From an uncultured Bacteroidia bacterium (GTDB lineage Bacteria; UBA4055): 64,000 nucleotides of DNA. Both the position numbers and the translations under genes were made by a program. The DNA lies in assembly GCA_964648295.1 (NCBI GenBank), contig CAZYNH010000001.1, positions 197,180 to 261,179 of the forward strand, in the 5' to 3' direction. This document shows positions 6,469 through 50,029 of this stretch, piece by piece; within the stretch, counting starts at the first letter, position 1, and every line of letters starts with the position of its first letter. The notes beneath the pieces are model-generated. The model searched no databases. It had not been told where the DNA came from and was given only the letters and a program-made list of their open reading frames with translations.

Positions 6469-7995
6469 CTAAATGTATTTTCTGTCCAGGCTCCTGTACT
6501 GAACTGCTTCGGCGATATGCCCGGCGGTTATGCTTTCATTTCCGTTCAGATCAGCTATCGTTCTGGAAACTTTAAGGATCCTGTTGTATGCCCTCGCTGA
6601 CAAAGACAGAGTCTCAATGGCCCGTTTCAGTATTGCCTCCGATGCAGGGTCAAGGGCGCAGTAAGTTTTAAGGTCCTTTTGGCTCATTCCCGAATTGCAG
6701 TATATATTCCTTCCTTTAAACCTGGCCGTCTGTATCTCTCTTGCTCTCCTTACCCGTTCTCTTACAGCTTCACTCTTTTCCGCGTCCTTTTTGGCGGCCA
6801 GCTCGTCATATTTAAGCGCAGGCACCTCTATATGAATATCGATCCTGTCCATAAGCGGGCCCGATATCCTGCCCAGGTAGCTCTTGATCTTATAAGGAGG
6901 ACAGGTGCACTCCCTTCTTGTGTCCCCGTAGTAGCCGCAGGGGCAGGGGTTCATAGCCGCGACCATTATGAAGTTGGCGGGGAATTTCAGCGTTGAAGCG
7001 GCTCTGGCTATCGTAACCTCCCTGTCCTCAAGGGGCTGGCGCATCACTTCAAGCACATTTTTCTTAAATTCGGGAAGTTCGTCAAGGAAAAGAACCCCGT
7101 TATGCGCCAGACTGATCTCGCCCGGCTTCGGGATCCTCCCGCCGCCTACAAGGGCGGAATCGGATATCGAGTGGTGCGGGGACCTGAACGGCCGGGTCGC
7201 TATGATCCCCCTGTTGTGCGGGAGAAGCCCCGCTACAGAATAGATCTTCGTCGTCTCCAGAGCCTCCTCGAGCGTCTGGCTCGGGAGGATCGTTGCGAAC
7301 CTTTTCGACAGCATCGATTTTCCGCTCCCGGGCGGACCGATCATGAGTATGTTATGACCTCCGGCGGCCGCTATCTCGAGCGCTCTTTTTACATGATACT
7401 GGCCTTTGACATCCGAAAAGTCTATTTCCCAGCGGTTCATCTCGTCGAAAAGCTTCCTTACATCCACCTTTCTCTTCACCAGTTCAGTCCGGCCCGAAAA
7501 AAAGTTAACTACATCTGTCAGGCTCCTTACCGGATAAATGTCTATTCCCGGTATGACCGCCGCCTCGTCGGAATTTTCAGACGGAAGTATTATGCCTCTG
7601 TATTTTTTTTCGGCCATCACCGCTATAGGCAGCGCTCCCTTTACAGGCCTGACCGTTCCGTCCAGAGAAAGCTCTCCAAGTATAAGATAATTTTCGGTCT
7701 TTTCAATATCCAGCTGTCCGGTCGCGCCGAGAATTGCCACTGCTATAGGCAGATCGTATGAGGAACCCTCTTTTTTTATATCGGCGGGCGCAAGGTTTAC
7801 TGTTATTTTCTTTAAAGGGAAAATATATCCGGAATTCTTTATTGCCGCGTTTATCCTGTCCTTACTTTCCTTAACAACATTATCGGGAAGCCCTACAAGA
7901 GAAAGTCCGGGCAGCCCCCTTTCAAGATGCGTTTCAACCTCGACCGTGAAGGCGTCTAAACCTATGACCGCGGCCGATAAAACTTTCGCCAGCAT
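6469..7995 (-). CDS. comM: YifB/ComM family Mg-chelatase-like AAA+ ATPase
   Basis: N-terminal Lon-protease-like domain, a Walker A motif (GPPGSGKSMLSKR) and a C-terminal ChlI-like region. Length is typical for the family. Confidence 0.9.
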   Translation of the reverse strand: MLAKVLSAAVIGLDAFTVEVETHLERGLPGLSLVGLPDNVVKESKDRINAAIKNSGYIFPLKKITVNLAPADIKKEGSSYDLPIAVAILGATGQLDIEKTENYLILGELSLDGTVRPVKGALPIAVMAEKKYRGIILPSENSDEAAVIPGIDIYPVRSLTDVVNFFSGRTELVKRKVDVRKLFDEMNRWEIDFSDVKGQYHVKRALEIAAAGGHNILMIGPPGSGKSMLSKRFATILPSQTLEEALETTKIYSVAGLLPHNRGIIATRPFRSPHHSISDSALVGGGRIPKPGEISLAHNGVLFLDELPEFKKNVLEVMRQPLEDREVTIARAASTLKFPANFIMVAAMNPCPCGYYGDTRRECTCPPYKIKSYLGRISGPLMDRIDIHIEVPALKYDELAAKKDAEKSEAVRERVRRAREIQTARFKGRNIYCNSGMSQKDLKTYCALDPASEAILKRAIETLSLSARAYNRILKVSRTIADLNGNESITAGHIAEAVQYRSLDRKYI

Positions 7996-8150
7996 TTTGT
8001 CTCCGTTTTAAAACTCAAGTCAGCGCCGTTAAATTACTTCAAATGTTTTTTAAAGTCAATAATTAATAAATATTTATTGGAATATCTGTCGTTTTTTTAT
8101 TATCTATCCACTGAAAATATAACAGTTAAAAAATACCGGAGAATATTATT

Positions 8151-9182
8151 ATGGCAAAAATGAGAGTCCTGGCAAAATTAAAGCCCGAGAAAGGCTTGTG
8201 GATGACGGAAAAGGAAATCCCCGAAATAGGTATAAACGATGTTCTTATCAAGATCAAAAAAACAGCGATATGCGGGACCGACCTCCACATCTATAAATGG
8301 GACGAATGGTCGCAGAAAACAATAACCGTCGGCCAGACGATCGGCCATGAATATGTAGGTACCGTCGCGGCGATGGGAGAGGGCGTCAGCCACTTCAGGA
8401 TCGGCGAAAGAGTGACCGGCGAGGGCCATCTTGCCTGCGGTCACTGCAGGAACTGCAGAAGGGGTAAAAAACATGTTTGCGAAAATACTGTCGGAATAGG
8501 CGTCAATATTGACGGGGCGTTCGCCGAATATCTCAAGGTGCCGGCGGAAAATGTCATGAAGATAAATCCCGCTATCCCCGACGACTACATCGCCATAATG
8601 GACCCGTTCGGCAACGCGGCCCACACGGCTTTATCTTTCCCCGTCATAGGCGAGGATGTTCTTATTACCGGCGCCGGCCTTATCGGTTCGATGGCCGTAG
8701 CCATCTGCAGATTCGCGGGAGCAAGGCACATCGTTGTGACGGACATCAGCGAATACAGGCTTGATATAGCCAGAAAAATGGGCGCAACGAGGGCGATAAA
8801 CCCTATGAAAACGAAGATAAAAGATGTTATGAAAGAACTCGGCATGGTCGGATTCGATGTGGGACTGGAAATGTCCGGATCGCCGGCGGCTTTCAACGAA
8901 ATGATACCCAGCATGTACAACGGCTCAAAAATCGCACTTCTCGGCATCCTGCCTTCAGATACGAAGGTCAGCTGGAGCGATATAATTTTTAAGGCTCTTA
9001 CGCTCAAAGGCATCTACGGAAGAGAAATGTTCGAGACCTGGTATAAAATGGAGCAGATGCTCATTGCAGGCTTAGACTTAAGTCCGATAATCACGCATCA
9101 TTACAAAGTAGCCGACTTCCAGAAAGGTTTTGATGTCATGGAGACCGGCGAAAGCGGAAAAGTAATTCTCGACTGGGAATAG
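8151..9182 (+). CDS. tdh: L-threonine 3-dehydrogenase
   Basis: Near-identical to the E. coli Tdh N-terminus ([31 protein letters not shown]). Zn-ADH fold. Confidence 0.9.
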
Positions 9183-10377: not shown

Positions 10378-11487
10378 TTGGAAATGACAATGATCGAAAA
10401 ACTTAAAATATTTAATTACAGAAGCCTTGAAAAGCTGGAATTGAATTCCCTGCTTAAAGTTAACCTGATAACCGGCAAGAACAACACCGGGAAATCAACA
10501 ATTCTCGAAGCCCTTGCTTCTTTTGCCGCAAAGGGTGATCTGAAGGTTTTATTCGAACTGCTCGAGGAGAGAGGCGAAGTTTATAAGCAAAATGAAATTG
10601 ATAGTAATCCAATAGAATACAATATTAAAACATTTGCATCGTTATTTACGAAAAGAGATGATAAGAGAAAAATAGATATTAAAGTCAGCGATGAGAATAA
10701 AGAGACTACATTATCCTTAAGGATAGTAAAGTATAGAGAAGAAAAAATACAGGGTGCAAATTCTGATGTGCCGAGAAAGAAAATCATTCTTGAAAATGGC
10801 AGCGGTGAAAATATTCTCGACTATCTTATGGGATTAGAAATCAAGAACGGCGGCGGCAGCTATATTTTACCATTGGATGAAGAAAAAATAAACAGGTTTG
10901 GTTTTAAAGGATTTAGTGAGCCTAAAAATTTTCAGTTTATCAGGCCGCGCGGATTAGAAACAAATATAAATCTGTCGTTATGGGATAGTATTGTTCTTAC
11001 TTACAAAGAGCAGTCCGTAATTGAAGCTTTAAGAATTATCGAGCCGGAAATTCATAAAATAACCTTCAAAGAAGACGGCGCGAACAACAGAAAAGCCGTA
11101 ATCAAATTATTGAACGATCCGGTTCTTATTCCTTTGCAAAGTATGGGTGACGGTATAAACAGGATACTTACGATTATTCTTGCAATGGTGAACTCCGATA
11201 ACGGTTATTTGCTTATAGACGAATTTGAAAACGGTCTGCATTATTCGGTTCAGGAAAAATTGTGGGAAATAATTTTCAGCTTATCTGAAAAATTAAATGT
11301 ACAGGTTTTTGCCACCACTCACAGCGAAGACTGCATTTCCGGTTTTGAAAAAATTATAAATAAGCCCGGCTTGGAATACAAAGGTAAATTGATCCGGCTT
11401 GAAAATGACGGCGGTTTTATAAAACAGGTGGAATTCGACAAAAACGAACTAAAAATTGCTTTTGAAAATAATATCGAAGTCAGATAA
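10378..11487 (+). CDS. AAA_21-type ABC ATPase (OLD/PARIS AriA-like). Likely true start is ATG 10384 or 10390
   Basis: Walker A motif (GKNNTGKST), Walker B/D-loop (LLIDEFENGLH) and an H-loop (ATTHSED). The stop TAA overlaps the ATG of the next gene. Confidence 0.8.
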   Translation: MEMTMIEKLKIFNYRSLEKLELNSLLKVNLITGKNNTGKSTILEALASFAAKGDLKVLFELLEERGEVYKQNEIDSNPIEYNIKTFASLFTKRDDKRKIDIKVSDENKETTLSLRIVKYREEKIQGANSDVPRKKIILENGSGENILDYLMGLEIKNGGGSYILPLDEEKINRFGFKGFSEPKNFQFIRPRGLETNINLSLWDSIVLTYKEQSVIEALRIIEPEIHKITFKEDGANNRKAVIKLLNDPVLIPLQSMGDGINRILTIILAMVNSDNGYLLIDEFENGLHYSVQEKLWEIIFSLSEKLNVQVFATTHSEDCISGFEKIINKPGLEYKGKLIRLENDGGFIKQVEFDKNELKIAFENNIEVR

Positions 11488-12113
11488 TGGGATCGAAAAA
11501 AGGATTAAGCAAAATACTACTCGTAGAAGGTAAAAATGATCAGCATGTTGTATGGTCGCTCTGCAGCAAGTTTAATATTCCGGAAAATTTTGATGTAGTT
11601 GATTGCGAAGGAATTGATAAACTAATTGAACAGATCCCTGTAAGATTTAAACAATCCGGCATCGAAACTATAGGTGTGATAATTGATGCAGACACCGATC
11701 TAAATGCTGCATGGCAAAAAATCAGATCGGTCTTTTTAGCTCAGAGCTGTCCGGTTCCCGAAAACATCCCCTCTGACGGTCTGATATGTGAAAATTCCGG
11801 CGGAATAAAAACCGGAGCTTGGATCATGCCTGATAATAATTTGAACGGAATGATCGAGGATTTCATTTCGTTTCTTATTCCCGAAAACGACAGCCTTTTG
11901 CCTATTGCAGAATCAACTCTTCAAAGTATTGAGCTTAACAATCTTAATAAATATCCTTTAAACCATAAATCAAAAGCGAAAATTCATACATGGCTTTCGT
12001 GGCAGGAAGTACCGGGCACACCTTTGGGGCTCGCAATCACAAAAAGATATCTCACGACCGACAACGATGCCTGTTTAAAGTTTATTACCTGGCTAAAAGA
12101 TCTTTACAAGTAA
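11487..12113 (+). CDS. Toprim-like nuclease-domain protein (DUF4435/DUF3226-like, OLD-family Toprim)
   Basis: Motifs ILLVEGKND and IIDADTD match a Toprim E...DxD signature. Translationally coupled to the upstream ATPase gene. Confidence 0.6.
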   Translation: MGSKKGLSKILLVEGKNDQHVVWSLCSKFNIPENFDVVDCEGIDKLIEQIPVRFKQSGIETIGVIIDADTDLNAAWQKIRSVFLAQSCPVPENIPSDGLICENSGGIKTGAWIMPDNNLNGMIEDFISFLIPENDSLLPIAESTLQSIELNNLNKYPLNHKSKAKIHTWLSWQEVPGTPLGLAITKRYLTTDNDACLKFITWLKDLYK

Positions 12114-13148: not shown

Positions 13149-16100
13149 ATGAAGAAATTTATTATCTCTCTAACAATAACAGCCTCTTTACTTATAATAT
13201 GGGCATGTACCGATCTGGAACACTCAAATCCGTTCGATTCCAGCTACGGTGATCCAGATCCGTTAAAAAAACTCGATCTGACAATCGAAAAAATTGACAG
13301 GATTAAACTAGTCTGGGACGATGATTATTACAGCAAAGACTCGAATTATACTTTTAAAATTGATAGAAAGCTGGGTGAAGACGGTTTGTGGGAAGAAGAT
13401 TATAAAATTTTCAAAAGCAAATACACTTCATTTACCGACTCTTCAGCCGGTATTGATCAGCTTAATTTTTATAGAGTCAAAGTAGCTTTTGATGGAAATA
13501 TTTCTGATCCTATTGAAGCATCGGTTCACAGCCCGTTTAATCCTCCGTCGAGTATTATTTTAAACAGAAAAGATATAAAAACAATTCAGATCAGCTGGAA
13601 TGACAATTCCAACGGAGAGGACGGCTTTAAAATTGACAGATATTCTAACGGCGCATGGGCAACAGGCTTTAAAACGCTTGGTCAGAACGCTACTACTTGG
13701 ACGGATTCCGCAGCCGTTCTTAACGATTCTATCAGATACAGGATCTACGGCTTCAGAAAGTCATATAACTCGCAAATGGCTATGACGAACCTGATAGACA
13801 ACACAATCCCGGCACCGTCTAATCTTTCTGTTCAGCAGAATGATGTAAGCACTTTCGAGCTTAACTGGACTGACAACAGCACCGGAGAACAGGGTTTTAT
13901 AGTAGAAAGAAGCATTGACGGCGGCTCTTTCTCAGTTTTAAGCACTTTACCTGCGAATACAACATCGTATATAGACACTTCAGTCAGCAAAGGAAAAAGT
14001 TTATCCGATGTATCGTACAGAGTTGTATCTTATTACGGCACATTTAAATCAGCTTATACCGAGACTTCATCCGGAATAGAATTTCCCGCACCGGGTTCGT
14101 TGTCTTATGAAAAGCTTACAATTTCTTCCATTAAGCTTAACTGGGCAGACAACAGCCTGTCTGAAGACGGCTTTAAAATTGAGAAAAAGGTAGGCGGCGG
14201 TTCATGGACTGCTTACGCAACTGTAGCTAAAAATACAATTACATGGACAGATACGTCAGTTGAGATAAATCAGACCGTTCAGTACAGGATCTATGCTTAT
14301 AAAGGAATTAACACTTCTTCAATTACCGAAAGTTCTGTCATTGATAATACTTTCCCGGCACCGACAGGCATTACTTTCACGAAAGTTTCGGTCAGCTCAA
14401 TTAAGATAGACTGGCTTGATAATTCAAACGGAGAAGATGGGTTTAAAATTGACAGATCAGTCAACGGCACTTGGACAAATTCTTATGCTTCTTTAGCTGG
14501 AAATATTAAAACATATACAGATGCAAGCGCACCCATCAATTCTACGGTCATATACCGTGTTTATGCGTATAAATCAACAAGCGTATCTGCATCTGTTTCG
14601 ACAACATCAATAGTTAATACTTTTCCCGCTCCCACAAATCCGACAATTACTCAGCTTGCGGTAAATTCCGTCAAAATTGACTGGGTGGATAATTCCACCG
14701 GAGAGGACGGATTCAAGATTGATAAGAAGAATGATACCGGCGTCTGGACGACAGCCTTTGCATCTGTCGGCTCGAACATTACAACTTATACCGATAACGC
14801 AGCCGCGATATCCGACAGCCTTCAATACAGAGTTTACGGTTACAAAGGAACAGCATATTCAGCTTACGCTTATACAAGCGCATCCGACCTGACATTTCCG
14901 CCGCCTACAAATGTAACTTACACCAGACCGTCAATTATTTCAATAAAATTGGACTGGTTTGACAACAGTACAGGCGAAACAGGATTTAAAATTGACCGAT
15001 CGGTTGACGGCGGCGCTTGGGTTATTGCTTACGGCACTGTAAGCGCAGATGTTGTTACTTGGACTGATGCCAATGCGCCGATAAATAAAAATATTCAGTA
15101 CAGAATTTACGGTTATACAACCACAGACGCCTCCAGTTATGCCACTTCGGCAGTAATAACAAATACATTTCCTGCGCCTGTTCTTAATACTGTCACTCAG
15201 CAGACAGTAAGTTCATTTAAGCTTGACTGGTCTGATAATTCCACCGGAGAGGAAGGCTTTAAAATAGAAAGAAAGATTGACGCCGAAGCTTATGTTCAAA
15301 TAGCTTCAGTCGGTGCAAATATTATAACATATACGGACTCCTCGATAAATAAAAAAGGATATACAACTGTTTACTATAGGGTCAGAGCATTTAAAGGAAC
15401 CGATTATTCAACATACAGCGAAAAAACACAGACAATATCATTCCCTGCACCTTCAAATGTAGGTTATGTAAAAACCTCAGTAAGTTCAATTACAGTAAAC
15501 TGGTCTGATAATTCAAACGGCGAAGACGGTTTTAAGATTGATAAAAAAGTTGGATCATCAGAATGGGTATTAACCTACGGAACCACAGCCGCAAACGCAG
15601 TTTCGTGGCTTGATTCAAATGCGGAACCGAACACATCTATTCAGTACAGAGTCTATGCGTACAAAGGAAGCAATTCATCAACAGCGAGTTACAGCGCGAC
15701 AATTGACAACACATTTCCTGCTCCGCTTAATATTTCAACAGAAAAGCTGACAATATCTTCGATAAAAGTAAACTGGACTGACAATTCAACAGGCGAATCA
15801 GGCTTTATTATCGACCGGAAAGTAGGAGTTGAGGCATGGGCAGCTTATGACACAACGGCGGCTAACGCTGTAACTTGGTCAGATAACAGCGCAGTCATAA
15901 ACGCTAATTTACAATACAGGGTCAAAGGATATAAAAGCAGCTATTATTCTAATTATCTTGAATCTTCTCAGATCAGCAATATTTTTCCTGCTCCTACAAA
16001 TCTGATCCTGACTCAAGTCAAGAAACTTCAGAAGGCCGTAACCATCAGGCTTGACTGGACTGATAATTCAACAGGTGAAGACGGTTTTAAAATCTTTAAG

Positions 16101-17858
16101 AAGAACGATGTCGGGAACTGGAACGAAGCCGGTACTGTCGCGAGCAACACCAAAACATGGTCAGACGCCTCCGCAGTAATCAATGACAGCCTCGCTTACA
16201 GAGTTCTCGGATACAAAGGAACATATACTTCAACATACTCACAGGCAGATGTAAGCTCATTAACATTCCCGCCGCCCACAAACCTGACATTCACAAAACT
16301 CGACCTGAATTCCATCAGACTGAACTGGACGGATAATTCAAACATGGAAGACGGCTTCAAAATTGATAAAAAAGTCGGTGACAATGCATGGGTGACCGCT
16401 TATGCAACTACCGCAGCAAACGCTGTAACATGGACAGACGATAACGCAGATGTCAATCAGACCTTACAATACAGAGTTTATACATATTCAGGCAGTTTCG
16501 TATCCAATTATGTAGAAACAACAGCAATAGATAACACTTTCCCCGCACCGACAAATCTAACAACAACACAGATCAGCATAACAAGTGCAAATATAGCTTG
16601 GAATGACAACAGCACGGGAGAAGAAAAATTTGAAATTGAACGAAAACTCTCAGCCGATGCAACATATATCAAGATCGGTGAAGTAACAGGCAGCACCGCT
16701 ACAACAAAAGCATACACAGACACAACCGTAGTCCCTTCAAGCACTTATGATTACAGAGTAAAAGGAGTTTTTGGAACAAACTCTTCAGCTTACATAACAA
16801 AAACCGGATATGAAAACACATTCGCAGCGCCAACTAACCTAACAGCTTCAGTCGAATCTGAAACATCTATAAAACTAACTTGGACTGATAATTCAGTAGG
16901 TGAAGATGGCTTTAAGATTGATCGAAAAATTGGAGCAGCTGGCACATGGGTAACAGATTACGCATCAGTAGCATCGAATGTTTCAACATGGACAGATAAC
17001 GGATTATCTATTGGCATAACATATTATTATAGAGCCCGAGCATATAACTTAACATATAACAGTAACAACACAAGTGAAATCTATGCTGAAATCGCACCTG
17101 CTGGTTTTGTTTCAATTCCAATTGGCAGTTTTGATATGGGTCAAACTGGTGTAGAAATACCCGTTCATAATGTAAGTATAACAAGACCTTATTATCTTGG
17201 GAAATATGAAATAACTCAAAAAGAGTGGTTAACGATAATGGAGACAAATCCTGCCCACAATTATGGTGTAGGGGATAACTATCCCGTTTATTATGTTAGT
17301 TGGAATGCTATACTTGTATATTGTAACAAGCGAAGTATAACGGAAGGCTTAACACCGTGCTATAGCATAAACGGTAGTACAGATCCAACAACTTGGGGAA
17401 ACATTCCAACATCGAGTAGCTCAACATGGGACGGGGTTATCTGCAACTGGGAAGCAGATGGATACAGGCTACCTACGGAAGCTGAATGGGAATACGCAGC
17501 TCAGTATAATGACGAAAGAACATACCCTTGGGGCGAAACAATACCTTCAAGCGACTTATGTAACTATAACTCAAATGTCGGTTCAACTTCTATTATTGGC
17601 AGCTACCCATTAGGTAAAAGTAAGCTCGGTTTGTATGACTTGTCAGGTAATGTTAGAGAATGGGTCTGGGACTGGTTTAGCAGTTATACGAGTGATTCTC
17701 AAATTGATCCTACTGGGCCTGTCATTGTAGATGGAAATAGAATACAAAGAGGAGGTAGCTTCCCTTATGAAGGTGTGGTAACATGTTCAGAACGTACTGG
17801 TGCAAGTCCTTACATGGGTTACTATGATTATGGATTTAGAGTTGCTAGAACTAAATAG
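13149..17858 (+). CDS. giant lipoprotein: about 14 tandem Fn3-like repeats plus a C-terminal formylglycine-generating-enzyme (FGE/SUMF1) domain
   Basis: Lipobox LLIIWAC. About 95-aa units repeat the pattern TFPAPTNLT..SIKLDWTDNSTGEDGFKIDRKV..W...QYRVYAYKG. The C-terminus (about 17020-17858) has FGE-sulfatase motifs (YYLGKYEITQKEW, VSWNAILVYCN, GYRLPTEAEWEYAA, GNVREWVWDW, RIQRGGSF). Confidence 0.85.
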   Translation: MKKFIISLTITASLLIIWACTDLEHSNPFDSSYGDPDPLKKLDLTIEKIDRIKLVWDDDYYSKDSNYTFKIDRKLGEDGLWEEDYKIFKSKYTSFTDSSAGIDQLNFYRVKVAFDGNISDPIEASVHSPFNPPSSIILNRKDIKTIQISWNDNSNGEDGFKIDRYSNGAWATGFKTLGQNATTWTDSAAVLNDSIRYRIYGFRKSYNSQMAMTNLIDNTIPAPSNLSVQQNDVSTFELNWTDNSTGEQGFIVERSIDGGSFSVLSTLPANTTSYIDTSVSKGKSLSDVSYRVVSYYGTFKSAYTETSSGIEFPAPGSLSYEKLTISSIKLNWADNSLSEDGFKIEKKVGGGSWTAYATVAKNTITWTDTSVEINQTVQYRIYAYKGINTSSITESSVIDNTFPAPTGITFTKVSVSSIKIDWLDNSNGEDGFKIDRSVNGTWTNSYASLAGNIKTYTDASAPINSTVIYRVYAYKSTSVSASVSTTSIVNTFPAPTNPTITQLAVNSVKIDWVDNSTGEDGFKIDKKNDTGVWTTAFASVGSNITTYTDNAAAISDSLQYRVYGYKGTAYSAYAYTSASDLTFPPPTNVTYTRPSIISIKLDWFDNSTGETGFKIDRSVDGGAWVIAYGTVSADVVTWTDANAPINKNIQYRIYGYTTTDASSYATSAVITNTFPAPVLNTVTQQTVSSFKLDWSDNSTGEEGFKIERKIDAEAYVQIASVGANIITYTDSSINKKGYTTVYYRVRAFKGTDYSTYSEKTQTISFPAPSNVGYVKTSVSSITVNWSDNSNGEDGFKIDKKVGSSEWVLTYGTTAANAVSWLDSNAEPNTSIQYRVYAYKGSNSSTASYSATIDNTFPAPLNISTEKLTISSIKVNWTDNSTGESGFIIDRKVGVEAWAAYDTTAANAVTWSDNSAVINANLQYRVKGYKSSYYSNYLESSQISNIFPAPTNLILTQVKKLQKAVTIRLDWTDNSTGEDGFKIFKKNDVGNWNEAGTVASNTKTWSDASAVINDSLAYRVLGYKGTYTSTYSQADVSSLTFPPPTNLTFTKLDLNSIRLNWTDNSNMEDGFKIDKKVGDNAWVTAYATTAANAVTWTDDNADVNQTLQYRVYTYSGSFVSNYVETTAIDNTFPAPTNLTTTQISITSANIAWNDNSTGEEKFEIERKLSADATYIKIGEVTGSTATTKAYTDTTVVPSSTYDYRVKGVFGTNSSAYITKTGYENTFAAPTNLTASVESETSIKLTWTDNSVGEDGFKIDRKIGAAGTWVTDYASVASNVSTWTDNGLSIGITYYYRARAYNLTYNSNNTSEIYAEIAPAGFVSIPIGSFDMGQTGVEIPVHNVSITRPYYLGKYEITQKEWLTIMETNPAHNYGVGDNYPVYYVSWNAILVYCNKRSITEGLTPCYSINGSTDPTTWGNIPTSSSSTWDGVICNWEADGYRLPTEAEWEYAAQYNDERTYPWGETIPSSDLCNYNSNVGSTSIIGSYPLGKSKLGLYDLSGNVREWVWDWFSSYTSDSQIDPTGPVIVDGNRIQRGGSFPYEGVVTCSERTGASPYMGYYDYGFRVARTK

Positions 17859-17895
17859 GAAAATTTGAATCTAATAAAACAAAGGCTACACTTAT

Positions 17896-18705
17896 ATGGA
17901 TATTTCAGAATTAATTCAAACAGTAGATAATGAATTCACCACAATTTTTTCATTCCCATTATTTTCCCAAATACCTGCTTCTAATATATCAGAATTGAAT
18001 AATCCTGTAAATGATAAAGATTCGTTTATTACAAGGCTGACTCAGTATAGTACGATTTTCGACAATTTCAATAAAAAAGAAATGGATACTATTACTGGAG
18101 GAAAAACACAAGGAACAAGAGAATGTTTAGAAAATTTTTTAAAAAGTAAACTAAAAAATGAACAAATATTTATTGATGACAAAATAATCAATCCGATGAA
18201 ATTATTTTGTCTTTTAAGAGATTACGTTGTTCATGGGAGAAATCGAAATAAAGGAAAAGCAATAAGCTATTTTAAGTTAAGTGATCCAATAGAAGACTTT
18301 GAGAGTTCTTGGAAAAGTGCCGTGTCAGTTTATCAAAGTATATTTCTCTCAATTTCATTTTTATTAAAATCTGTAAACCTAGAAACGATAAAATCATCAA
18401 AATTAAATAAAGAAACAGAAGATTTGCTAGTAAGACAGTTTATAGCTGATTGCTCTTATTATTTTGAAGATCGTAGAACAAATGCCTTGTTTAGAGAAAT
18501 AATAGAAAAAGGGCCTGTCTCAGATGTTGAATTGGCTAAGATTTTTAATATTAATGTAATTGAATTGCGGAGAATTCTTTATCCGTTTGTAGACAAACTC
18601 ATTTTAACGCAATACAAAGCTTACAATGAAACTTTAATCTCATTAAAACCCTACTTTTACGATTATAAAGATATTATTACTAAAGAAATGGCTGGTAATC
18701 CATGA
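17896..18705 (+). CDS. hypothetical protein with a HEPN-like R-x4-HG motif (putative Abi/toxin-type RNase)
   Basis: LRDYVVHGRNRN matches the R[DN]x[LV]xHG HEPN active-site pattern, which is also seen in this window's HepT (RNRLIHGY) and the MAE_28990-like protein (RNRLAHGE). AT-rich gene. Confidence 0.45.
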   Translation: MDISELIQTVDNEFTTIFSFPLFSQIPASNISELNNPVNDKDSFITRLTQYSTIFDNFNKKEMDTITGGKTQGTRECLENFLKSKLKNEQIFIDDKIINPMKLFCLLRDYVVHGRNRNKGKAISYFKLSDPIEDFESSWKSAVSVYQSIFLSISFLLKSVNLETIKSSKLNKETEDLLVRQFIADCSYYFEDRRTNALFREIIEKGPVSDVELAKIFNINVIELRRILYPFVDKLILTQYKAYNETLISLKPYFYDYKDIITKEMAGNP

Positions 18706-19328
18706 GAACAAAATTTCTCAAGGTAACGGATTCTTGTACTGAATTGTTTTATCTTATAATACAGTTTCAAGAATCAGATAAAGAATATCTGGATAAATGT
18801 GGACAGTCTTGCAGGTTAAAGATTATCATAAATTTATCAGATAAACCAGTATCATGTTTTTCTGGATACGATTTAGATGATAGGCGTGGGAATACAATTG
18901 CGAACCTTACGAAATTGATGGAAACGAATGGGACAATAAACGGATTAAAAGAAATAATACATAATACAGTAGATATAAGCCATTTACCTGACGAATTAGA
19001 TGTGGAAGAGGCACGGTGGGCATATATACACACAAACCTGAATCAAGATATAGATGATTCTTTAAATGAAATCATTGAGAATGTATGTAGCGATCGCAAC
19101 TATGGAATTACACTTAACAAATATATCTTTAAACGAATTGATCATGAATATACAATTCTTATTGTAGAAAAAGAATCTAATAAAGTAATTTACGAAAATA
19201 CATTTATTTCAGCAAATCCAAGTAAGATTTATAATAAATATTTATGGATTCCAATAGAAGAGATTTCAGATATAGATTTTATAAAATTTTATGAAGGAAA
19301 TAAAGGTGTTCAAAAAATTGAAGTATAG
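18702..19328 (+). CDS. hypothetical protein, translationally coupled to the upstream HEPN-like gene
   Basis: Start and stop overlap (ATGA). No recognisable domain. AT-rich. Confidence 0.45.
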   Translation: MRTKFLKVTDSCTELFYLIIQFQESDKEYLDKCGQSCRLKIIINLSDKPVSCFSGYDLDDRRGNTIANLTKLMETNGTINGLKEIIHNTVDISHLPDELDVEEARWAYIHTNLNQDIDDSLNEIIENVCSDRNYGITLNKYIFKRIDHEYTILIVEKESNKVIYENTFISANPSKIYNKYLWIPIEEISDIDFIKFYEGNKGVQKIEV

Positions 19329-19437
19329 CAAAAATATATTGTTTTAAAAATTGACAGTAAATTTTACCCTTATGCAGGATTAACAATGAGAAACACAAAC
19401 TCAATAAAACTATTAAATCAAAAACAAATTTGTGATG

Positions 19438-19456
19438 TGTACGAAGAAATCGTACA
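19438..19456. promoter_or_regulatory. second copy of the palindrome TGTACGA-N5-TCGTACA, about 80 nt upstream of the AlbA_2/HATPase_c_4 gene
   Basis: The sequence tgtacga agaaa tcgtaca is read directly. Spacing to the start codon matches the first site. Confidence 0.6.
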
Positions 19457-19534
19457 TTTGAACTTGCTGAATTTTATTTCTGAACAAAGTTTTAAATTTC
19501 AAATAGAATTTGAAAATTAACAACGGAATCGTGT

Positions 19535-21184
19535 ATGCCTGATAAAAAAATGATAGATTTATTGCGTAGCCTCATCCAGACTTGGGAAAACGAGGTTATT
19601 GAGTTCAAGGAAGCGAATGATAATTTTCCGACTTCAGATATCGGGAAGTATTTTTCTGCTCTGTCGAACGAGGCTAACTTGAGAGGTAAAGATCGTGCGT
19701 GGCTTGTGTTCGGTGTTCATAATAAAACCCGAAAGATTGTCGGTACTGATTATAGGATGGAACCGGAAAGGCTTCAGAGTCTTAAGATGCAGATTTCGCA
19801 GAATACTGAACCTACTGTTACTTTTCGTAATATTCATGAAGTATTTACGGACAGTTTGAGGGTGATTTTGTTTGAAATTCCTTCTGCGCCGATTGGTATT
19901 CCTATTTCATGGAACGGGCATTATTATTCTCGCTCCGGTGAAAGCTTGGTTTCTCTCGGCTTGAATAAGCTCGATGAGATCAGAAAGCAGACTTCGGCAT
20001 CTGATTGGACGGCAAAGATAATTGATGAAGCTACGGTTGAGCATCTTGACCCTGATGCTATTGAAAAGGCTCGTGAGGCTTACGGAGAAAAATATTCAAA
20101 CCGCTTTACAGAATCAGAAATAAAAAAATGGTCTGTGCCTGTTTTTCTCGACAGGGCAAGGCTGACTATATCGGGTAAGATCACAAGGACTACTTTGATC
20201 CTTCTCGGTAAAAAAGAATCGTCGCATTTTCTTCTTCCCTATCCGTCTCAGATCACATGGAAACTTGAAGATAAAGAAAGAGCTTACGAACATTTCGCGC
20301 CGCCTTTTTTATTGAGTACTTCCGAGCTTTATCAAAAAATAAGAAATTATCAGATCAGAATTCTGCCTGAAAACAGCCTGATCCCCGTTGAAGTTTCCAA
20401 ATATAAACAGAGAGTTATTCTTGAAGCTCTGCATAACTGTATAGCTCATCAGGATTATACAAAAAATTCCAGAATTATCGTAACTGAATATGCGGATAAA
20501 CTTTCTTTTGAGAATGTAGGCAGTTTTTATGAGGGCTACCCTGAAGATTATATCGCCGGGACAAAAACACCGCACAGTTATAGAAATTCTTTTCTTGCTC
20601 AGGCGATGGCCGAGTTAAAAATGATAGACACTTTAGGCTATGGCATTCATGAAATGAATACGGAACAAGCGAAAAGATTTTTTCCGTTGCCTGATTATGA
20701 TCTTTCGGAGCCGGGAGTTGTCAAAGTTTCAATATACGGAAAAGTATTCGATCCTGCTTACAGCAACCTGCTCATACAGAATCCCGATCTTGCGTTAGAG
20801 GATATTATAGCTCTTGACAGAGTTCAGAAAAAGCTTCCTTTGACGGATGAAATGATAAAAAGGTTGAGGAACGCACAGCTTATAGAAGGCCGGAAGCCGA
20901 ACTTTCACATTTCGCTAAAAGTCGCGAAAGTGACAGACAAGAAAGTTGACTATATAAAAACCAAAGGCTTTGATGATTCATACTGTAAAGACTTGATACT
21001 TGAGTTCATAAAAAAATGGGGTGAAATATCCCGCAAACAAGCTGAAGATCTTCTTTGGGATAAATTGCCTGATATTTTAGATGATAAAGCTAAATTCAAT
21101 AAGGTTACTTATATTTTGCAGAGTCTGAAAAAAGATAACTTCATATTTTTAGGAAAAGCTAAAAAATGGAAAATAAATTTATAA
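19535..21184 (+). CDS. Schlafen/AlbA_2 DNA-binding domain + HATPase_c_4 domain protein (putative ATP-dependent transcriptional regulator)
   Basis: N-terminal 'divergent AAA/AlbA_2' motifs (EFKEANDNFP..., AWLVFGVHNKT). The C-terminal HATPase_c_4 N-box is EALHNCIAHQDY. Confidence 0.75.
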   Translation: MPDKKMIDLLRSLIQTWENEVIEFKEANDNFPTSDIGKYFSALSNEANLRGKDRAWLVFGVHNKTRKIVGTDYRMEPERLQSLKMQISQNTEPTVTFRNIHEVFTDSLRVILFEIPSAPIGIPISWNGHYYSRSGESLVSLGLNKLDEIRKQTSASDWTAKIIDEATVEHLDPDAIEKAREAYGEKYSNRFTESEIKKWSVPVFLDRARLTISGKITRTTLILLGKKESSHFLLPYPSQITWKLEDKERAYEHFAPPFLLSTSELYQKIRNYQIRILPENSLIPVEVSKYKQRVILEALHNCIAHQDYTKNSRIIVTEYADKLSFENVGSFYEGYPEDYIAGTKTPHSYRNSFLAQAMAELKMIDTLGYGIHEMNTEQAKRFFPLPDYDLSEPGVVKVSIYGKVFDPAYSNLLIQNPDLALEDIIALDRVQKKLPLTDEMIKRLRNAQLIEGRKPNFHISLKVAKVTDKKVDYIKTKGFDDSYCKDLILEFIKKWGEISRKQAEDLLWDKLPDILDDKAKFNKVTYILQSLKKDNFIFLGKAKKWKINL

Positions 21185-21358: not shown

Positions 21359-21667
21359 ATGATGTCGAAAGCAGATATAGTAAAAAAAATCAGGTCGAAA
21401 AAACGATTAATGAGATCTTTGGGCATTTTAAAGCTGTCACTTTTCGGTTCTGCTCTTAACGATACTCAGGATGAAAACAGCGATATTGATCTTTTGGTTC
21501 AGTTCGAAGGCAGTCAAAGTCTTTTTCGCATAATAAAAGCTCAGGAAGAGTTAAAAAAATATTTAGGTAAAGAGGTTGATCTCGTCACGGAAGATTCTCT
21601 TTCGGTATATTTTAGAGATAAAGTTATGAGCGAGATGGAGACTATTATAGATGAAAAATCCCGATAA
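21359..21667 (+). CDS. mntA: nucleotidyltransferase-family antitoxin (MNT/MntA-like)
   Basis: LSLFGSALNDTQDENSDIDLLVQFEG is the minimal-NTase GS...DxD motif. It overlaps the downstream HepT gene. Confidence 0.85.
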   Translation: MMSKADIVKKIRSKKRLMRSLGILKLSLFGSALNDTQDENSDIDLLVQFEGSQSLFRIIKAQEELKKYLGKEVDLVTEDSLSVYFRDKVMSEMETIIDEKSR

Positions 21668-21980
21668 TAAAAAGCTTGTTTTACATATCAAAGATGCCTG
21701 CGAGAGTATTTTCAAATTCATAGAAGGTAAAAATTACGACGATTTTTCCAAAAATGACATGCTTTTAAGCGCGGTTATAAGGAAACTTGAAGTAATAGGA
21801 GAAGCTTCCTCGAAAACAACGGATGAGTATCGTAATGAGAACAAAGAAGTGCCGTGGTCAATTATGATCGGCATGAGAAACCGGCTCATTCACGGTTATT
21901 TCGGTGTTAACAGTAAGACGGTCTGGGATACAGTTAAAGAAGATATTCCGATTCTTTACGATAAAATCTTAAACCTTTAA
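21651..21980 (+). CDS. hepT: HepT/DUF86 HEPN toxin
   Basis: The RNRLIHGY (Rx4HxY) motif. Its size and gene overlap with the MNT partner fit a type VII toxin-antitoxin pair. Confidence 0.85.
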   Translation: MKNPDNKKLVLHIKDACESIFKFIEGKNYDDFSKNDMLLSAVIRKLEVIGEASSKTTDEYRNENKEVPWSIMIGMRNRLIHGYFGVNSKTVWDTVKEDIPILYDKILNL

Positions 21981-22095: not shown

Positions 22096-23472
22096 ATGAA
22101 TGACATGAACAGGATAGAAACTCAGTTTAAAGATAAAATCAAAAGTTTTCTAAACCAGAATTCGTTCAACACATGGATCAAACCGGTAAAGATCGTCAAT
22201 ATTGACGGAGAGAACATTTCTTTTCAGGTGCCGTCAAAGGTGCATATCGACTATATCAAAGGACAGTACAGGTCGGTTTTCGAAAAAACGCTTAAGGAGA
22301 TACTCTCAAGCGAGAATATCAATATTAAATTTTTGATCGACTCTGATACCGACTTTAATTTTGAGACTAAAACAGGGACGGAAGTCGCAGTAAAAAAACC
22401 AAAAGAGATATCAAAGGGAAGAATAGCCCCGTACAAGGAAACTTCTTTAAACCCGAAATACACTTTTGAGAATTTTGTCATGGGTAACGGCAATGAAACG
22501 GCCTATGTGTCCTCTCTTCAGGTCGCCCAGAATATAAAAAAGACCCAGTACAATCCGCTTTTGATCTTCGGAGGAGTGGGCCTCGGAAAAACGCATCTTG
22601 TTTCCGCGATCGGGAACCATGTTTTTAATCATGATCCCAATATGAAAATACTCTATATGACATCGGATATATTCGTGTTCCAGATAATCAACCACATAAA
22701 AAACAAAACTATTGATGATTACAAAGCTTACCTGAGAACGAAAGACCTTATCATAATCGACGATATCCAGTTCTTCGCCAAAAAAGACAAGAGCATGGAA
22801 GAGCTTTTCCATATCTTCAATTACATTTATAACAGCGGGGGCCAGATAGTCCTTACTTCAGATTTCCATCCCAATGAGATACACGAGCTTGACGACAGGC
22901 TTAAATCAAGGTTTAAAATGGGTTTAATAACAGATGTTAGGGCTCCGGATCTTGAGACGAGGGCGGCTATAATCCGACTCAAGGCGGAAGAAATAAGTTT
23001 CAACCTCGATGATGATATCGTTATGTTCATTGCCAATAATATAAACACGAATGTCAGAGATCTGGAGGGTGCGGTAAAGAAACTGTATTTCCACCATTCG
23101 CATTTTAACAAAGAGATAAGTATCGGTAAGGCGAAAGAAATATTAAAAGAACTTATCACATCAAAAAAATCGACCCTTAATATTGATAAGATACAGGATA
23201 TAGTCTCTGAATTTTTCTCCATCCCTAAAGATCTTTTAATGAAAAAAACAAGAACGAAAGAAGTGGCAGAAGCAAGGGCTGTCGCAATGTATCTCTGCAC
23301 AACTCAGCTTAAAGCTACTACCACAAGTATAGGCGTGCATTTCGGCGGAAGGGAGCACAGCACAGTATCACATGCCGCGGCCAAAATACAGAAAAAACTG
23401 AGCGCGAAGGATCCTGAAACTGTCAAAATGATAGACGAGATACTTAATGTGATTAACTTATCAACATGTTAA
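22096..23472 (+). CDS. dnaA: chromosomal replication initiator DnaA
   Basis: AAA+ Walker A (GGVGLGKTHL), sensor and box VII motifs, and a C-terminal DNA-binding domain (KEVAEARAVAMYL...). Followed by dnaN. Confidence 0.95.
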   Translation: MNDMNRIETQFKDKIKSFLNQNSFNTWIKPVKIVNIDGENISFQVPSKVHIDYIKGQYRSVFEKTLKEILSSENINIKFLIDSDTDFNFETKTGTEVAVKKPKEISKGRIAPYKETSLNPKYTFENFVMGNGNETAYVSSLQVAQNIKKTQYNPLLIFGGVGLGKTHLVSAIGNHVFNHDPNMKILYMTSDIFVFQIINHIKNKTIDDYKAYLRTKDLIIIDDIQFFAKKDKSMEELFHIFNYIYNSGGQIVLTSDFHPNEIHELDDRLKSRFKMGLITDVRAPDLETRAAIIRLKAEEISFNLDDDIVMFIANNINTNVRDLEGAVKKLYFHHSHFNKEISIGKAKEILKELITSKKSTLNIDKIQDIVSEFFSIPKDLLMKKTRTKEVAEARAVAMYLCTTQLKATTTSIGVHFGGREHSTVSHAAAKIQKKLSAKDPETVKMIDEILNVINLSTC

Positions 23473-47117: not shown

Positions 47118-47204
47118 TAGAGTAAAATTGCTTTAAAATTGATATGTTATATTAAACAAAATTAATTATATTTAACACTAAGATAATATGATGAATGAGT
47201 TAAA

Positions 47205-49350: not shown

Positions 49351-50029
49351 TACAAAACAAGATTTCGAAAATCGAATGGAAGAAATAGAAAATTATTTTT
49401 TGTTCTTAACGATTTTTGATGAAGAAGAAACGAGATTGTATTATAAAATTGAGAATGAGTTTGTGAGGGAAAAAATTCAATTTCAATTTCAAACAACTTT
49501 ATTAGCTAACGGTTTTTTGATTTTATATAATTTAATTGAATCAACAATAAGAAATTCAATAATAGCTATTTATAAAAAAGTAAAGGCAGAAGAACTTAAT
49601 TACAAAGAGTTGTCCAATAATTTACAGAAGCTATGGATAAAACAAACAACAGACAATTTGAAAGAAGGTAATTATAGACCAGATACTCTCCGGCAATGTG
49701 TCTATAATCTTGTTGATGAAGTTTTAAAAAACGAAACAATAATGTTTTCAGAAGATAAAATGGATTTCTCTGGTAATCTTGATGCAGATAAAATCAGAGA
49801 CCTTGCTAATAAAATTGGATTTGAGACATCTCAAAATGGAAGAAATCTTGTAGAGATTAAAAATAAAAGGAATCGTCTTGCTCACGGTGAGCAGACTTTT
49901 TATGATGTTGGTAAAGATTTTTCAGTAAAAGAATTACATGATTTTAAAAAAGAAACTTTCAGTTATCTTTATGATGTTATAGATAAAATTGAGAGATATA
50001 TAAGAGATGAAAATTTTAAAAATAAATGA
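49343..50029 (+). CDS. HEPN-domain protein (MAE_28990/MAE_18760-like)
   Basis: The RNRLAHGE (Rx4HG) motif near the C-terminus. Overlaps the DUF262 stop by 8 nt. Confidence 0.65.
   Translation: MDNTKQDFENRMEEIENYFLFLTIFDEEETRLYYKIENEFVREKIQFQFQTTLLANGFLILYNLIESTIRNSIIAIYKKVKAEELNYKELSNNLQKLWIKQTTDNLKEGNYRPDTLRQCVYNLVDEVLKNETIMFSEDKMDFSGNLDADKIRDLANKIGFETSQNGRNLVEIKNKRNRLAHGEQTFYDVGKDFSVKELHDFKKETFSYLYDVIDKIERYIRDENFKNK

What the first reader, a model, noticed from the sequence alone, without database searches (positions are those of the whole stretch)
17896..19328. AT-rich, translationally coupled two-gene cassette with a HEPN-like Rx4HG motif: candidate uncharacterised toxin/Abi module
Gene 1 (269 aa) carries LRDYVVHGRN, matching the R[DN]x[LV]xHG catalytic signature of HEPN RNases. 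That signature also appears in this window's HepT and its MAE_28990-like protein. Gene 2 (208 aa) overlaps gene 1 by ATGA and has no recognisable domain. Both genes are markedly more AT-rich than their neighbours. They sit between the giant Fn3-FGE gene and the palindrome-regulated locus, which suggests horizontal acquisition.
Basis: partly seen in the sequence, partly recalled or inferred. Interest (0 to 1): 0.6.

Follow-up and report, generated by a model that had tools for sequence, protein, structure and literature searches.

The report
Uncharacterised HEPN-like two-gene module
Two overlapping, unusually AT-rich genes form a rare module that is always inherited as a pair: the first gene probably encodes an RNA-cutting (HEPN-type) enzyme fused to a winged-helix domain, and the second encodes a partner of unknown fold, so the pair is most likely a new toxin/antitoxin-like or anti-phage module, which no experiment has yet tested.

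Summary
ORFs 17896-18705 (269 aa, g1) and 18702-19328 (208 aa, g2) overlap by ATGA. Their GC is 28%, against 42% for the window. No curated Pfam, NCBIfam or PADLOC family matches either protein.

g1 has two domains. The N-terminal domain is all-helical. Its R108-x4-H113 motif is invariant in about 35 divergent homologue clusters and appears as Rx5-6H in about 40 more distant proteins. In a confident AlphaFold model (pLDDT 83) the motif lies at the end of a long helix, where HEPN RNases carry it. Sub-threshold hits in three libraries repeatedly fall on HEPN models. The only fold-level support is a weak Foldseek hit to HepT, so the fold is not proven. The C-terminal domain is an acidic winged helix.

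g2 is an orphan α/β protein. It follows g1, overlapping or within 3 bp, in all 12 lineages where downstream DNA could be read. These include a Bacillus thuringiensis megaplasmid. Neighbours vary and are often defence genes.

In three Delongbacteria genomes the pair sits behind the same Fn3-FGE gene, at divergence matching that gene. Here it is therefore an old resident, not a recent import.

Most likely it is a new HEPN-based toxin-antitoxin or abortive-infection-like module. Toxicity and g2's role remain untested.

The parts
17896..18705 (+). g1, 269 aa: an N-terminal HEPN-like helical domain plus a C-terminal winged helix
   Evidence: ORF. AlphaFold model with pLDDT 83. Homologues at 47-56% identity in four close lineages, and about 33 clusters with the same architecture.
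17896..18378 (+). g1 N-terminal all-alpha domain, residues 1-161. Helices run 3-18, 28-35, 41-55, 60-67, 74-85, 87-113, 119-125 and 135-161.
   Evidence: Model. The family profile finds 79 representative clusters. Conserved polar residues are D42, R47, D56, N59, K60, G73, K83, R108, H113 and W139. Weak hits to HEPN models in three libraries. hhalign to the window's HepT gives P 0.0065 with the motifs in register.
18217..18234 (+). R108-D-Y-V-V-H113, the putative catalytic Rx4H motif
   Evidence: H113 is invariant in 35 of 35 sequences and R108 in 34 of 35. In the 31 full-length family members both are invariant. The motif forms the last six residues of helix 87-113. This matches the HEPN definition of 'end of helix-3' (PMC3710099).
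18409..18693 (+). g1 C-terminal winged-helix domain, residues 172-266, acidic
   Evidence: The family profile hits PDB 2d1h, a wHTH regulator, at E 0.005. Foldseek returns MarR, ArsR, ScpB and TFE-alpha. Weak TFIIE-alpha hits in Pfam and NCBIfam. The pI is 4.6-5.4 in 10 lineages.
18702..18705 (+). ATGA overlap of the g1 stop and the g2 start
   Evidence: Sequence. Eight of the 10 tabulated lineages overlap, six by 4 bp, one by 1 bp and one by 11 bp; two have a 2-3 bp gap. The Bacillus plasmid copy also overlaps by 4 bp.
18702..19328 (+). g2, 208 aa: an orphan alpha/beta partner protein. Invariant residues are D10, T13, G55, G77, T78, L95, P96, V101, R105, K140, W182 and P184.
   Evidence: ORF. 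Homologues at 27-66% identity are always downstream of g1. No family, PDB or fold match. The model is poor, with pLDDT 59.
17859..17895 (+). 37-bp spacer between the Fn3-FGE gene and g1. No promoter or terminator pattern was found, so co-transcription with the upstream gene is possible.
   Evidence: Promoter-like sites occur at the chance level and there are no terminator-like sites in 17600-19700. The spacers are 20-21 bp in L010 and L001.

Best explanation
g1 and g2 form a self-contained, mobile two-gene module of the toxin-antitoxin or abortive-infection type, built around a HEPN-family RNase that has not been described before.

- **g1 (inferred).** It dimerises through its N-terminal helical domain, as HEPN RNases do. 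R108 and H113 would then form a metal-independent RNA-cleaving site.
- **g1 winged helix (inferred).** Because the domain is acidic, it is more likely a docking or regulatory module than a classical operator-binding domain. It could bind g2 or a trigger.
- **g2 (inferred).** It is made in fixed ratio with g1 through translational coupling. It keeps the RNase silent or senses the trigger. Release of g1 would cleave cellular or phage RNA and arrest growth.

Shown here: the gene pair, its strict co-occurrence, the domain layout, the invariance and position of Rx4H, and the variable, often defence-type neighbourhoods. Inferred: the RNase activity, which protein is the toxin, and the defence role.
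For: 1. Strict pairing. g2 follows g1, from an 11-bp overlap to a 3-bp gap, in all 12 lineages where downstream DNA is readable. This holds down to about 22-25% g1 identity and across phyla, from Candidatus Delongbacteria to Bacillus thuringiensis plasmid pMC429.
2. Motif conservation. R108 and H113 are invariant in the 31 full-length family members. H113 is invariant and R108 is present in 34 of 35 when distant members with Rx5-6H are added. This is the Rx4-6H definition of HEPN (PMC3710099).
3. Motif position. In the pLDDT-83 model the motif ends helix 87-113, followed by a loop and a last long helix. This is the position given for HEPN.
4. Sub-threshold hits of family members cluster on HEPN models.
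   - Pfam: HEPN_Apea three times, HepT-like, DUF4145 and DUF3644.
   - PADLOC: Cas13d at 1.9e-4, Cas13b, CARF_HEPN and DUF3644.
   - NCBIfam: HepT_toxin and Cas13b.
   - The same test on g2 gives no HEPN or recurring hit.
5. hhalign of the family against the window's HepT aligns R..H to R..H and W139 to the HepT tryptophan, with P 0.0065. Foldseek finds HepT 7bxo_F with probability 0.84.
6. Context. Neighbours differ between lineages and are often defence-type.
   - AbiGi.
   - HNH plus P-loop pairs.
   - dCTP deaminase.
   - DUF1016/YhcG.
   - AlbA_2 and MNT/HepT in this window.
   - Integrase fragments on the plasmid.
7. Composition. The pair is 26-31% GC in the other lineages checked except L009 (g1 31%, g2 38%). 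In this window it shares its low GC with the other defence genes.
8. Three family members match the C-terminal part of the PADLOC defence candidate PDC-S49, best E 6e-6.
Against: - The hhalign match to HepT is no better than the best chance match among 54 window proteins.
- No curated HEPN model reaches its threshold.
- The Ex3[KR] acidic residue of many HEPN families is only half conserved: E79 appears in 16 of 35 sequences.
- g2 is as conserved as g1, or more so. It has several invariant polar residues. This is unlike a typical fast-evolving, partly disordered antitoxin and leaves its role open.
- The gene order, with the putative toxin first, is the reverse of HepT/MntA.
- In three genomes the pair lies 20-37 bp behind a conserved Fn3-FGE gene. 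This could indicate an operon with a non-defence function.
- No copy was found on phage or viral contigs.
- No experiment exists.
Confidence: 0.5

Rival explanations
1. The roles are reversed. g2 is the effector or enzyme, possibly a toxin. g1 is its regulator or antitoxin, using the winged helix for autoregulation and the helical domain as a sensor or neutralising domain.
For: g1 carries a winged helix, as many antitoxins and regulators do. It is encoded first, which is the usual antitoxin position. g2 is at least as conserved as g1 and has invariant polar residues suggestive of an active site: D10, T13, R105 and K140.
Against: The winged helix is acidic in every lineage, with pI 4.6-5.4. That is atypical for an operator-binding domain. 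The strongest constraint in g1 is on R108 and H113, a catalytic-type signature. g2 has no similarity to any toxin or enzyme family.
Confidence: 0.2
2. The helical domain of g1 is not a nuclease. It is a non-catalytic helical bundle used for ligand binding, nucleotide binding or dimerisation, as in inactive HEPN or other four-helix domains. The pair would then be a regulatory or signalling couple with no toxin.
For: No significant fold or profile match to an active HEPN was found. The acidic Ex3K residue is poorly conserved. HEPN domains that have lost the Rx4-6H catalytic motif and serve in substrate binding are known (PMC3710099).
Against: Inactive HEPN domains typically lose the Rx4-6H motif (PMC3710099). 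Here it is the best conserved element across at least 70 clusters. HEPN RNase models recur among the weak hits.
Confidence: 0.15
3. The pair is functionally tied to the upstream giant Fn3-FGE surface protein, for example in its regulation, maturation or export. It would then be part of a three-gene operon rather than an autonomous module.
For: The order Fn3-FGE / g1 / g2, with 20-37 bp spacers, is conserved in the window, L001/L002 and L010, while the outer flanks differ. No promoter or terminator pattern was seen between the genes.
Against: In nine other lineages the pair occurs without any FGE gene. There it sits next to a P-loop ATPase with HNH, a TPR protein, AbiGi, dCTP deaminase or integrase fragments. 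The FGE C-terminus and the pair have diverged to a similar extent, so shared descent explains the synteny. GC differs sharply between the FGE gene and the pair.
Confidence: 0.1

Closest known systems
HepT/MntA (HEPN/MNT, type VII toxin-antitoxin; Pfam HepT-like PF01934 with NTP_transf_2)
   Same: Both are two overlapping genes. Both have an RxxxxHG motif at the end of a long helix, followed by a terminal helix carrying a conserved Trp. hhalign puts the two motifs in register. Foldseek finds HepT 7bxo_F. A HepT-like model is a weak hit.
   Different: - No HepT model reaches its threshold.
- The residue two positions after His is Arg, not the adenylylated Tyr of RX4HXY (PMC7641770).
- The partner g2 is not a nucleotidyltransferase and has no conserved GSX10DXD motif.
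- The gene order is reversed.
- g1 has an extra 40-residue N-terminal segment, an insert after the motif, and a fused winged helix.
ApeA / HEPN_Apea (PF18739) and other single-protein HEPN defence proteins, including the PADLOC candidate PDC-S49
   Same: HEPN_Apea is the only Pfam family hit by more than one family member, with 3 of 35. The C-terminal region of PDC-S49 matches three members at up to E 6e-6. About 40 distant relatives carry the domain at the C-terminus of 300-465 aa proteins, an ApeA-like layout.
   Different: All these hits are below the curated thresholds. g1 has the domain at its N-terminus with a winged helix behind it, and it needs a dedicated partner gene. ApeA and PDC-S49 are single-gene systems.
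Type IX retron (Retron-Kva2) HEPN-WH effector pair
   Same: A HEPN RNase works together with a winged-helix protein and is held inactive in a complex until triggered (bioRxiv 10.64898/2026.07.14.738597).
   Different: In the retron, HEPN and WH are separate proteins, the HEPN lacks Rx4-6H, and the system needs a reverse transcriptase and msDNA. Here HEPN and WH are fused, Rx4H is canonical, and no reverse transcriptase or ncRNA lies nearby.
RnlA/RnlB and LsoA/LsoB (HEPN toxin with a dedicated protein antitoxin)
   Same: A multidomain HEPN RNase toxin is encoded first and followed by a small, family-specific protein antitoxin. This description of RnlA/RnlB rests on my own knowledge and on the abstract of PMC8266594 as listed.
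   Different: g1 and g2 show no sequence or profile similarity to RnlA or RnlB. At about 205 aa, g2 is larger than RnlB and is well conserved.

Membership tests
HEPN superfamily (Anantharaman et al. 2013, PMC3710099) | A conserved Rx4-6H motif, usually with a polar residue after the Arg | tested here: met
   R108-x4-H113 is invariant in 31 full-length members. Distant members have Rx5-6H. The residue after Arg is D, N or T in 23 of 31 core members and A or G in 8.
HEPN superfamily (Anantharaman et al. 2013, PMC3710099) | The motif lies at the end of helix-3, at the start of the loop to helix-4, of an all-alpha four-helix core | tested here: met
   In the AlphaFold model (pLDDT 83), residues 108-113 end helix 87-113, followed by a loop, a short helix and the last helix 135-161. 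The definition is quoted. This is a prediction, not an experimental structure.
HEPN superfamily (Anantharaman et al. 2013, PMC3710099) | Significant fold or profile similarity to established HEPN domains | tested here: inconclusive
HEPN superfamily (Anantharaman et al. 2013, PMC3710099) | A second conserved acidic residue in helix-2 (the Ex3[KR] motif; present in many families, not all) | tested here: inconclusive
   E79-x3-K83 is present in the window protein. K83 is invariant in the core family, but E79 is found in only 16 of 35 sequences.
HEPN superfamily (Anantharaman et al. 2013, PMC3710099) | Metal-independent RNase activity that depends on the Arg and His | not testable with these tools
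   This needs biochemistry.
HepT/MntA class I HEPN/MNT toxin-antitoxin (PMC7641770) | An RX4HXY motif with the adenylylated Tyr | tested here: not met
   g1 reads RDYVVHGR, so the residue two positions after His is R115.
HepT/MntA class I HEPN/MNT toxin-antitoxin (PMC7641770) | An adjacent MNT partner with the GSX10DXD motif (NTP_transf_2) | tested here: not met
   g2 and its eight homologues have no NTP_transf_2 hit at E up to 10. There is no conserved GS...DxD; positions 57 and 59 vary.
Curated Abi HEPN families (AbiU2, AbiV, AbiD/F Abi_2, AbiJ/Abi_C, RiboL-PSP, MAE_28990, Swt1, LA2681) | A match to the Pfam model at the gathering score | tested here: not met
   g1 matches none of these families at E up to 1. 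None appears among the families matched by the 35 family members at E up to 10.
Known or candidate anti-phage systems in PADLOC-DB v2 | A match of g1 or g2 to a system protein model | tested here: not met
   g1 and g2 match no PADLOC family. Only weak partial hits of other family members to PDC-S49 and PDC-M46A were found.
Type II-like toxin-antitoxin module (generic) | Two adjacent, co-oriented, co-conserved small genes with overlapping or abutting reading frames, found in variable genomic contexts | tested here: met
   The genes are paired in 12 of 12 lineages, from an 11-bp overlap to a 3-bp gap, with different neighbours and a copy on a plasmid.
Type II-like toxin-antitoxin module (generic) | One product is toxic and the other neutralises it | not testable with these tools
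   This needs expression assays.

The most novel reading that the evidence does not exclude
g1-g2 is a new, experimentally untouched anti-phage or addiction system. A new HEPN RNase family is controlled in an unusual way: through a fused acidic winged helix that acts as a protein- or nucleic-acid-sensing module, together with a partner protein of new fold (g2) that has its own conserved catalytic-looking residues. The partner might covalently modify or sense, rather than simply sequester, the RNase.
Probability: 0.3. Interest if true: 0.6.

Novelty: new variant of a known kind. Interest (0 to 1): 0.45.

Why it matters
HEPN RNases are the effectors of many immune and toxin systems, including Cas13, Csm6, HepT, RnlA, ApeA and PrrC. 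How each one is kept silent is the interesting part. This module pairs what looks like a new HEPN family with a partner that has no relatives and with a fused acidic winged helix, so it could reveal a new control mechanism. The family is small and well defined: about 35 clusters with a strictly linked partner. It spans distant phyla and includes a copy on a Bacillus thuringiensis plasmid from a named, sequenced strain, which gives a concrete starting point for experiments. If it proves to be one more HEPN toxin-antitoxin pair, the gain is modest: one more annotated family for defence-island catalogues.

Tried and rejected
- **Curated-family searches.** Pfam, NCBIfam and PADLOC scans of g1 and g2 gave nothing above threshold.
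- **Word-indexed homologue search with g1 alone.** It found only g1 itself. The homologues came from g2's neighbours and from a profile search.
- **PDB sequence searches.**
  - The g1 family profile found only the winged helix, 2d1h.
  - The N-domain profile of 35 sequences found nothing meaningful.
  - The g2 profile found nothing.
  - The window's HepT against PDB by phmmer also found nothing, so no HepT reference profile could be built.
- **Fold searches.**
  - PDB and BFVD Foldseek results for g1 are dominated by the winged helix.
  - The g2 model is too poor (pLDDT 59) and its hits to EndoV, LpoB and the exosome have low probability, so I rejected them.
- **hhalign comparisons.** The MAE_28990 HEPN aligned over only 18 columns around the motif and was not significant. 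The HepT result was tempered by a control against 54 window proteins.
- **The search for related loci.**
  - With the close family it found one genome, a Delongbacteria MAG, and one extra metagenome contig, and nothing on viral contigs.
  - HepT on viral contigs found nothing.
- **Conserved third gene.** I tested whether the upstream 621-aa ATPase of L003 is a conserved third component. It has no homology to the upstream gene of L017, which is a TPR protein, or to the plasmid's P-loop protein. Rejected.
- **g2 as a minimal nucleotidyltransferase.** The window copy has an apparent S-x10-DxD, but it is not conserved. Rejected.
- **Signals and RNA genes.** Promoter and terminator scans were at chance level. 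There are no tRNA or Rfam hits in the window.
Full report
**1. The observation**

The window holds two + strand ORFs, 17896-18705 (269 aa, g1) and 18702-19328 (208 aa, g2). The g1 stop and the g2 start overlap in ATGA at 18702-18705.

GC is 0.278 for g1 and 0.285 for g2. The upstream Fn3-FGE gene has 0.404, the downstream gene 0.385 and the whole window 0.423. The two genes rank second and third lowest of 56 genes. The other low-GC genes are recognisable defence genes: GmrSD_N with HEPN_MAE_28990, two Dcm methylases with an HNH gene, and MNT/HepT.

The peptide LRDYVVHGRN is residues 106-115 of g1. A loose version of the motif occurs only three times in long ORFs of the window. The other two occurrences are the bona fide HEPN proteins HepT and MAE_28990. 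One chance hit is still plausible, so the motif alone proves nothing.

**2. No known family**

g1 and g2 have no significant hit in Pfam, NCBIfam or PADLOC. The only hint is a weak TFIIE-alpha/TFE winged-helix match at g1 residues 172-257.

**3. The pair is a conserved unit**

- g2 has three close homologue clusters. Each is preceded by a 268-269 aa gene that is 47-55% identical to g1.
- A profile of these sequences found a fifth member in a Candidatus Delongbacteria MAG.
- An exhaustive HMM search of 1.84 billion representatives found 79 clusters at E ≤ 1e-3. About 33 of them share g1's length and two-domain layout.
- Wherever the DNA downstream of such a gene could be read, a g2 homologue follows, from an 11-bp overlap to a 3-bp gap. 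g2 identity ranges from 27 to 66%.

| Lineage |
|---|
| Window |
| L001/L002 |
| L003-L008 |
| L009 |
| L010 |
| L011 |
| L014 |
| L015/L016 |
| L017 |
| L021-L024 |
| L026 |
| B. thuringiensis MC28 plasmid pMC429 (L027) |

- That makes 12 lineages out of 12 (alignments and gap sizes).
- On the plasmid, the deposited annotation starts the g2 homologue too late; the ORF overlaps the g1 homologue by 4 bp.

**4. Context**

- Neighbours differ between lineages:
  - a giant Big_7/fn3/FGE-sulfatase gene (window, L001, L010);
  - an HNH_2-like gene plus a 621-aa P-loop protein (L003);
  - a TPR protein (L017);
  - AbiGi (L011);
  - a dCTP-deaminase-domain gene (L021);
  - DUF1016/YhcG nucleases (L001, L010);
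  - integrase fragments and an HNH plus P-loop pair (plasmid).
- The upstream ATPases and HNH genes are not homologous to one another. The conserved unit is therefore the two genes only.
- No copy was found on viral contigs or in phage genomes.
- The module is mobile over long distances, crossing phyla and reaching a plasmid.
- In the window's own clade the order Fn3-FGE / g1 / g2 is conserved.
  - The FGE C-terminus has diverged as much as the pair: 47-57% identity against 54-55% for g1 and 65-66% for g2.
  - At this locus the pair is therefore an old resident.
- Its low GC (26-31% in the other lineages checked, except L009 at 31-38%) looks like a property of the module rather than a sign of recent arrival.

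**5. What g1 is**

With only five sequences, AlphaFold gives a confident model (pLDDT 83). It shows:

- an all-helical domain, residues 1-161;
- a disordered linker, residues 161-170;
- a winged helix, residues 172-266.

*Winged helix*
- It is supported by a profile hit to PDB 2d1h (E 0.005).
- Foldseek hits to MarR, ArsR, ScpB and TFE-alpha also support it.
- The domain is acidic in all ten lineages examined, with pI 4.6-5.4.
- This argues for a protein-docking or regulatory role rather than classical operator binding.

*Helical domain*
- It has no sequence relative in the PDB.
- R108 and H113 are invariant in 31 full-length family members.
- In a 35-sequence alignment that includes distant proteins, H113 is the only invariant residue and R108 is present in 34 of 35.
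- The distant group comprises about 40 clusters of 300-465 aa proteins that carry the domain at their C-terminus. Their motif reads R-x5-6-H (R..YP.H[GST]D).
- This is the Rx4-6H definition of the HEPN superfamily.
- In the model the motif forms the last turn of helix 87-113, before the loop to the final helix. [quoted passage not shown]

*Weak profile hits*

Sub-threshold hits of individual family members fall repeatedly on HEPN models.

| Library | HEPN-type hits |
|---|---|
| Pfam | HEPN_Apea (3 members), HepT-like, DUF4145, DUF3644 |
| PADLOC | Cas13d (1.9e-4), Cas13b, CARF_HEPN, DUF3644; also the candidate PDC-S49 (3 members, 6e-6) |
| NCBIfam | HepT_toxin, Cas13b |

- The four Pfam families are all listed as HEPN in PMC3710099.
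- The same test on nine g2 homologues gives only scattered, unrelated hits.

*Direct comparisons*
- hhalign of the family against the window's HepT aligns motif to motif and W139 to HepT's conserved Trp, with P 0.0065.
- A control against 54 window proteins shows that one unrelated protein scores as well.
- Foldseek lists HepT (7bxo_F) only at rank 44, with E 0.34 and probability 0.84.
- I therefore regard HEPN membership as probable, roughly 70%, but not demonstrated.

**6. What g2 is**

- It is an orphan. There are no family, PDB or credible fold matches.
- The model is poor, with pLDDT 59 from four sequences.
- The predicted secondary structure is mixed alpha/beta.
- Nine homologues share the invariant residues D10, T13, G55, G77, T78, L95, P96, V101, R105, K140, W182 and P184.
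- It is mostly acidic and at least as conserved as g1.
- It is not a minimal nucleotidyltransferase: there are no NTP_transf_2 hits, and the apparent S-x10-DxD of the window copy is not conserved.
- The distant single-domain relatives of g1 lack a g2 partner. One example lies among housekeeping genes in L019. g2 therefore goes with the HEPN-like-plus-WH architecture specifically.

**7. Mechanism**

The best-supported reading is a toxin-antitoxin or abortive-infection-type module.

- g1 would be a dimeric HEPN RNase.
- g2 and/or the fused winged helix would restrain it or sense the trigger.
- Translational coupling would fix the stoichiometry of the two proteins.

The shown steps are the pairing, the architecture, the motif conservation and position, and the context. 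RNase activity, toxicity, the direction of neutralisation and a defence role are all inferred.

Three rivals remain:
- the roles are reversed, with g2 as effector and g1 as regulator;
- the helical domain is non-catalytic;
- the pair is functionally linked to the Fn3-FGE gene.

Their weights are given in the rivals section.

**8. Comparison with known systems**

- **HepT/MntA.** The module works most like this or like RnlA/RnlB-type HEPN toxin-antitoxin pairs, but it fails HepT/MntA membership. It has no Tyr two residues after the His and no MNT partner (PMC7641770).
- **Curated Abi-HEPN models.** It reaches none of them.
- **PADLOC systems.** It matches none.
- **Nearest weak sequence neighbours.** These are HEPN_Apea and the untested PADLOC candidate PDC-S49.
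- **HEPN with a winged helix.** This pairing has a recent parallel in type IX retrons, where the two are separate proteins and depend on reverse transcriptase and msDNA.

**9. Verdict**

This is a real, co-conserved, uncharacterised two-gene module with a probable new HEPN family and a new partner family. It is a new variant of a well-known kind of system. Interest is moderate. HEPN toxin modules are common and new ones are found regularly. However, the unknown partner, the fused acidic winged helix and the cross-phylum distribution make it a reasonable experimental target.

Noticed in passing
window 19535-21184, with a palindrome at 19492-19520: The gene downstream of the pair encodes a 549-aa Schlafen/AlbA_2 plus HATPase_c_4 protein. 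It has a weak PADLOC hit to a pAgo model (E 6e-9). A 13-nt inverted repeat, TTAAATTTCAAAT/ATTTGAAAATTAA, lies 15 bp before its start.
   Followed up: partly
window 21359-21980 and 22096-23472: A canonical overlapping MNT/HepT pair (NTP_transf_2 with HepT-like, motif RNRLIHGY) sits directly upstream of an ORF at 22096-23472 that I read as dnaA. That reading comes from inspecting the translation and was not checked against any family library. If it is right, the g1-g2 / AlbA_2 / MNT-HepT cluster forms a small accessory island next to the replication-origin region.
   Followed up: partly
window 44629-50029: This is a second low-GC defence cluster (GC 0.26-0.33). It holds an HTH-Dcm methylase, an HNH_2 protein, a second Dcm methylase, a GmrSD_N protein (48271-49350) and an overlapping HEPN_MAE_28990 protein (49343-50029).
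   Followed up: partly
window 10378-12113: A DUF3226 protein (11487-12113, Pfam E 1e-69) abuts a 369-aa ORF (10378-11487) that shares its boundary base. The 369-aa ORF has low GC (0.353) and was not identified.
   Followed up: no
window 13149-17858; L001 3511-7173; L010 2033-5953: A giant secreted protein with about 14 Fn3-like repeats and a C-terminal FGE-sulfatase domain is conserved next to the pair in three Delongbacteria-type genomes. Its length varies between them: 1569, 1220 and 1306 aa.
   Followed up: partly
L027 (B. thuringiensis MC28 plasmid pMC429, CP003694.1) 7786-8403: The deposited annotation starts the g2 homologue (MC28_G399) at locus position 7840. The ORF actually begins at 7786 and overlaps the g1 homologue MC28_G400 by 4 bp, as in the other lineages. 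On the opposite strand, about 1.2 kb downstream, lies an overlapping pair of a P-loop protein (706 aa) and an HNH nuclease. I read this pair as Septu-like from memory; it was not tested.
   Followed up: partly
P0044-P0087 (for example L018 980-1894 and L019 4443-5576): About 40 clusters of 300-465 aa proteins carry a C-terminal version of the g1 helical domain. Their motif is R-x5-6-H (R..YP.H[GST]D), and they have an N-terminal region unknown to Pfam and PADLOC. They lack both the winged helix and a g2 partner. One lies among housekeeping genes.
   Followed up: partly
P0031, P0033, P0046, P0074 (L017 1912-3240): A subgroup of g1 homologues has an extra N-terminal extension of about 135-175 aa of unknown nature. 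In P0031 and P0033 the motif reads RTE[YF]xH, whereas P0046 and P0074 have no Rx4H. In the one locus examined (P0031, L017) the g2 partner is still present, with an 11-bp overlap.
   Followed up: partly
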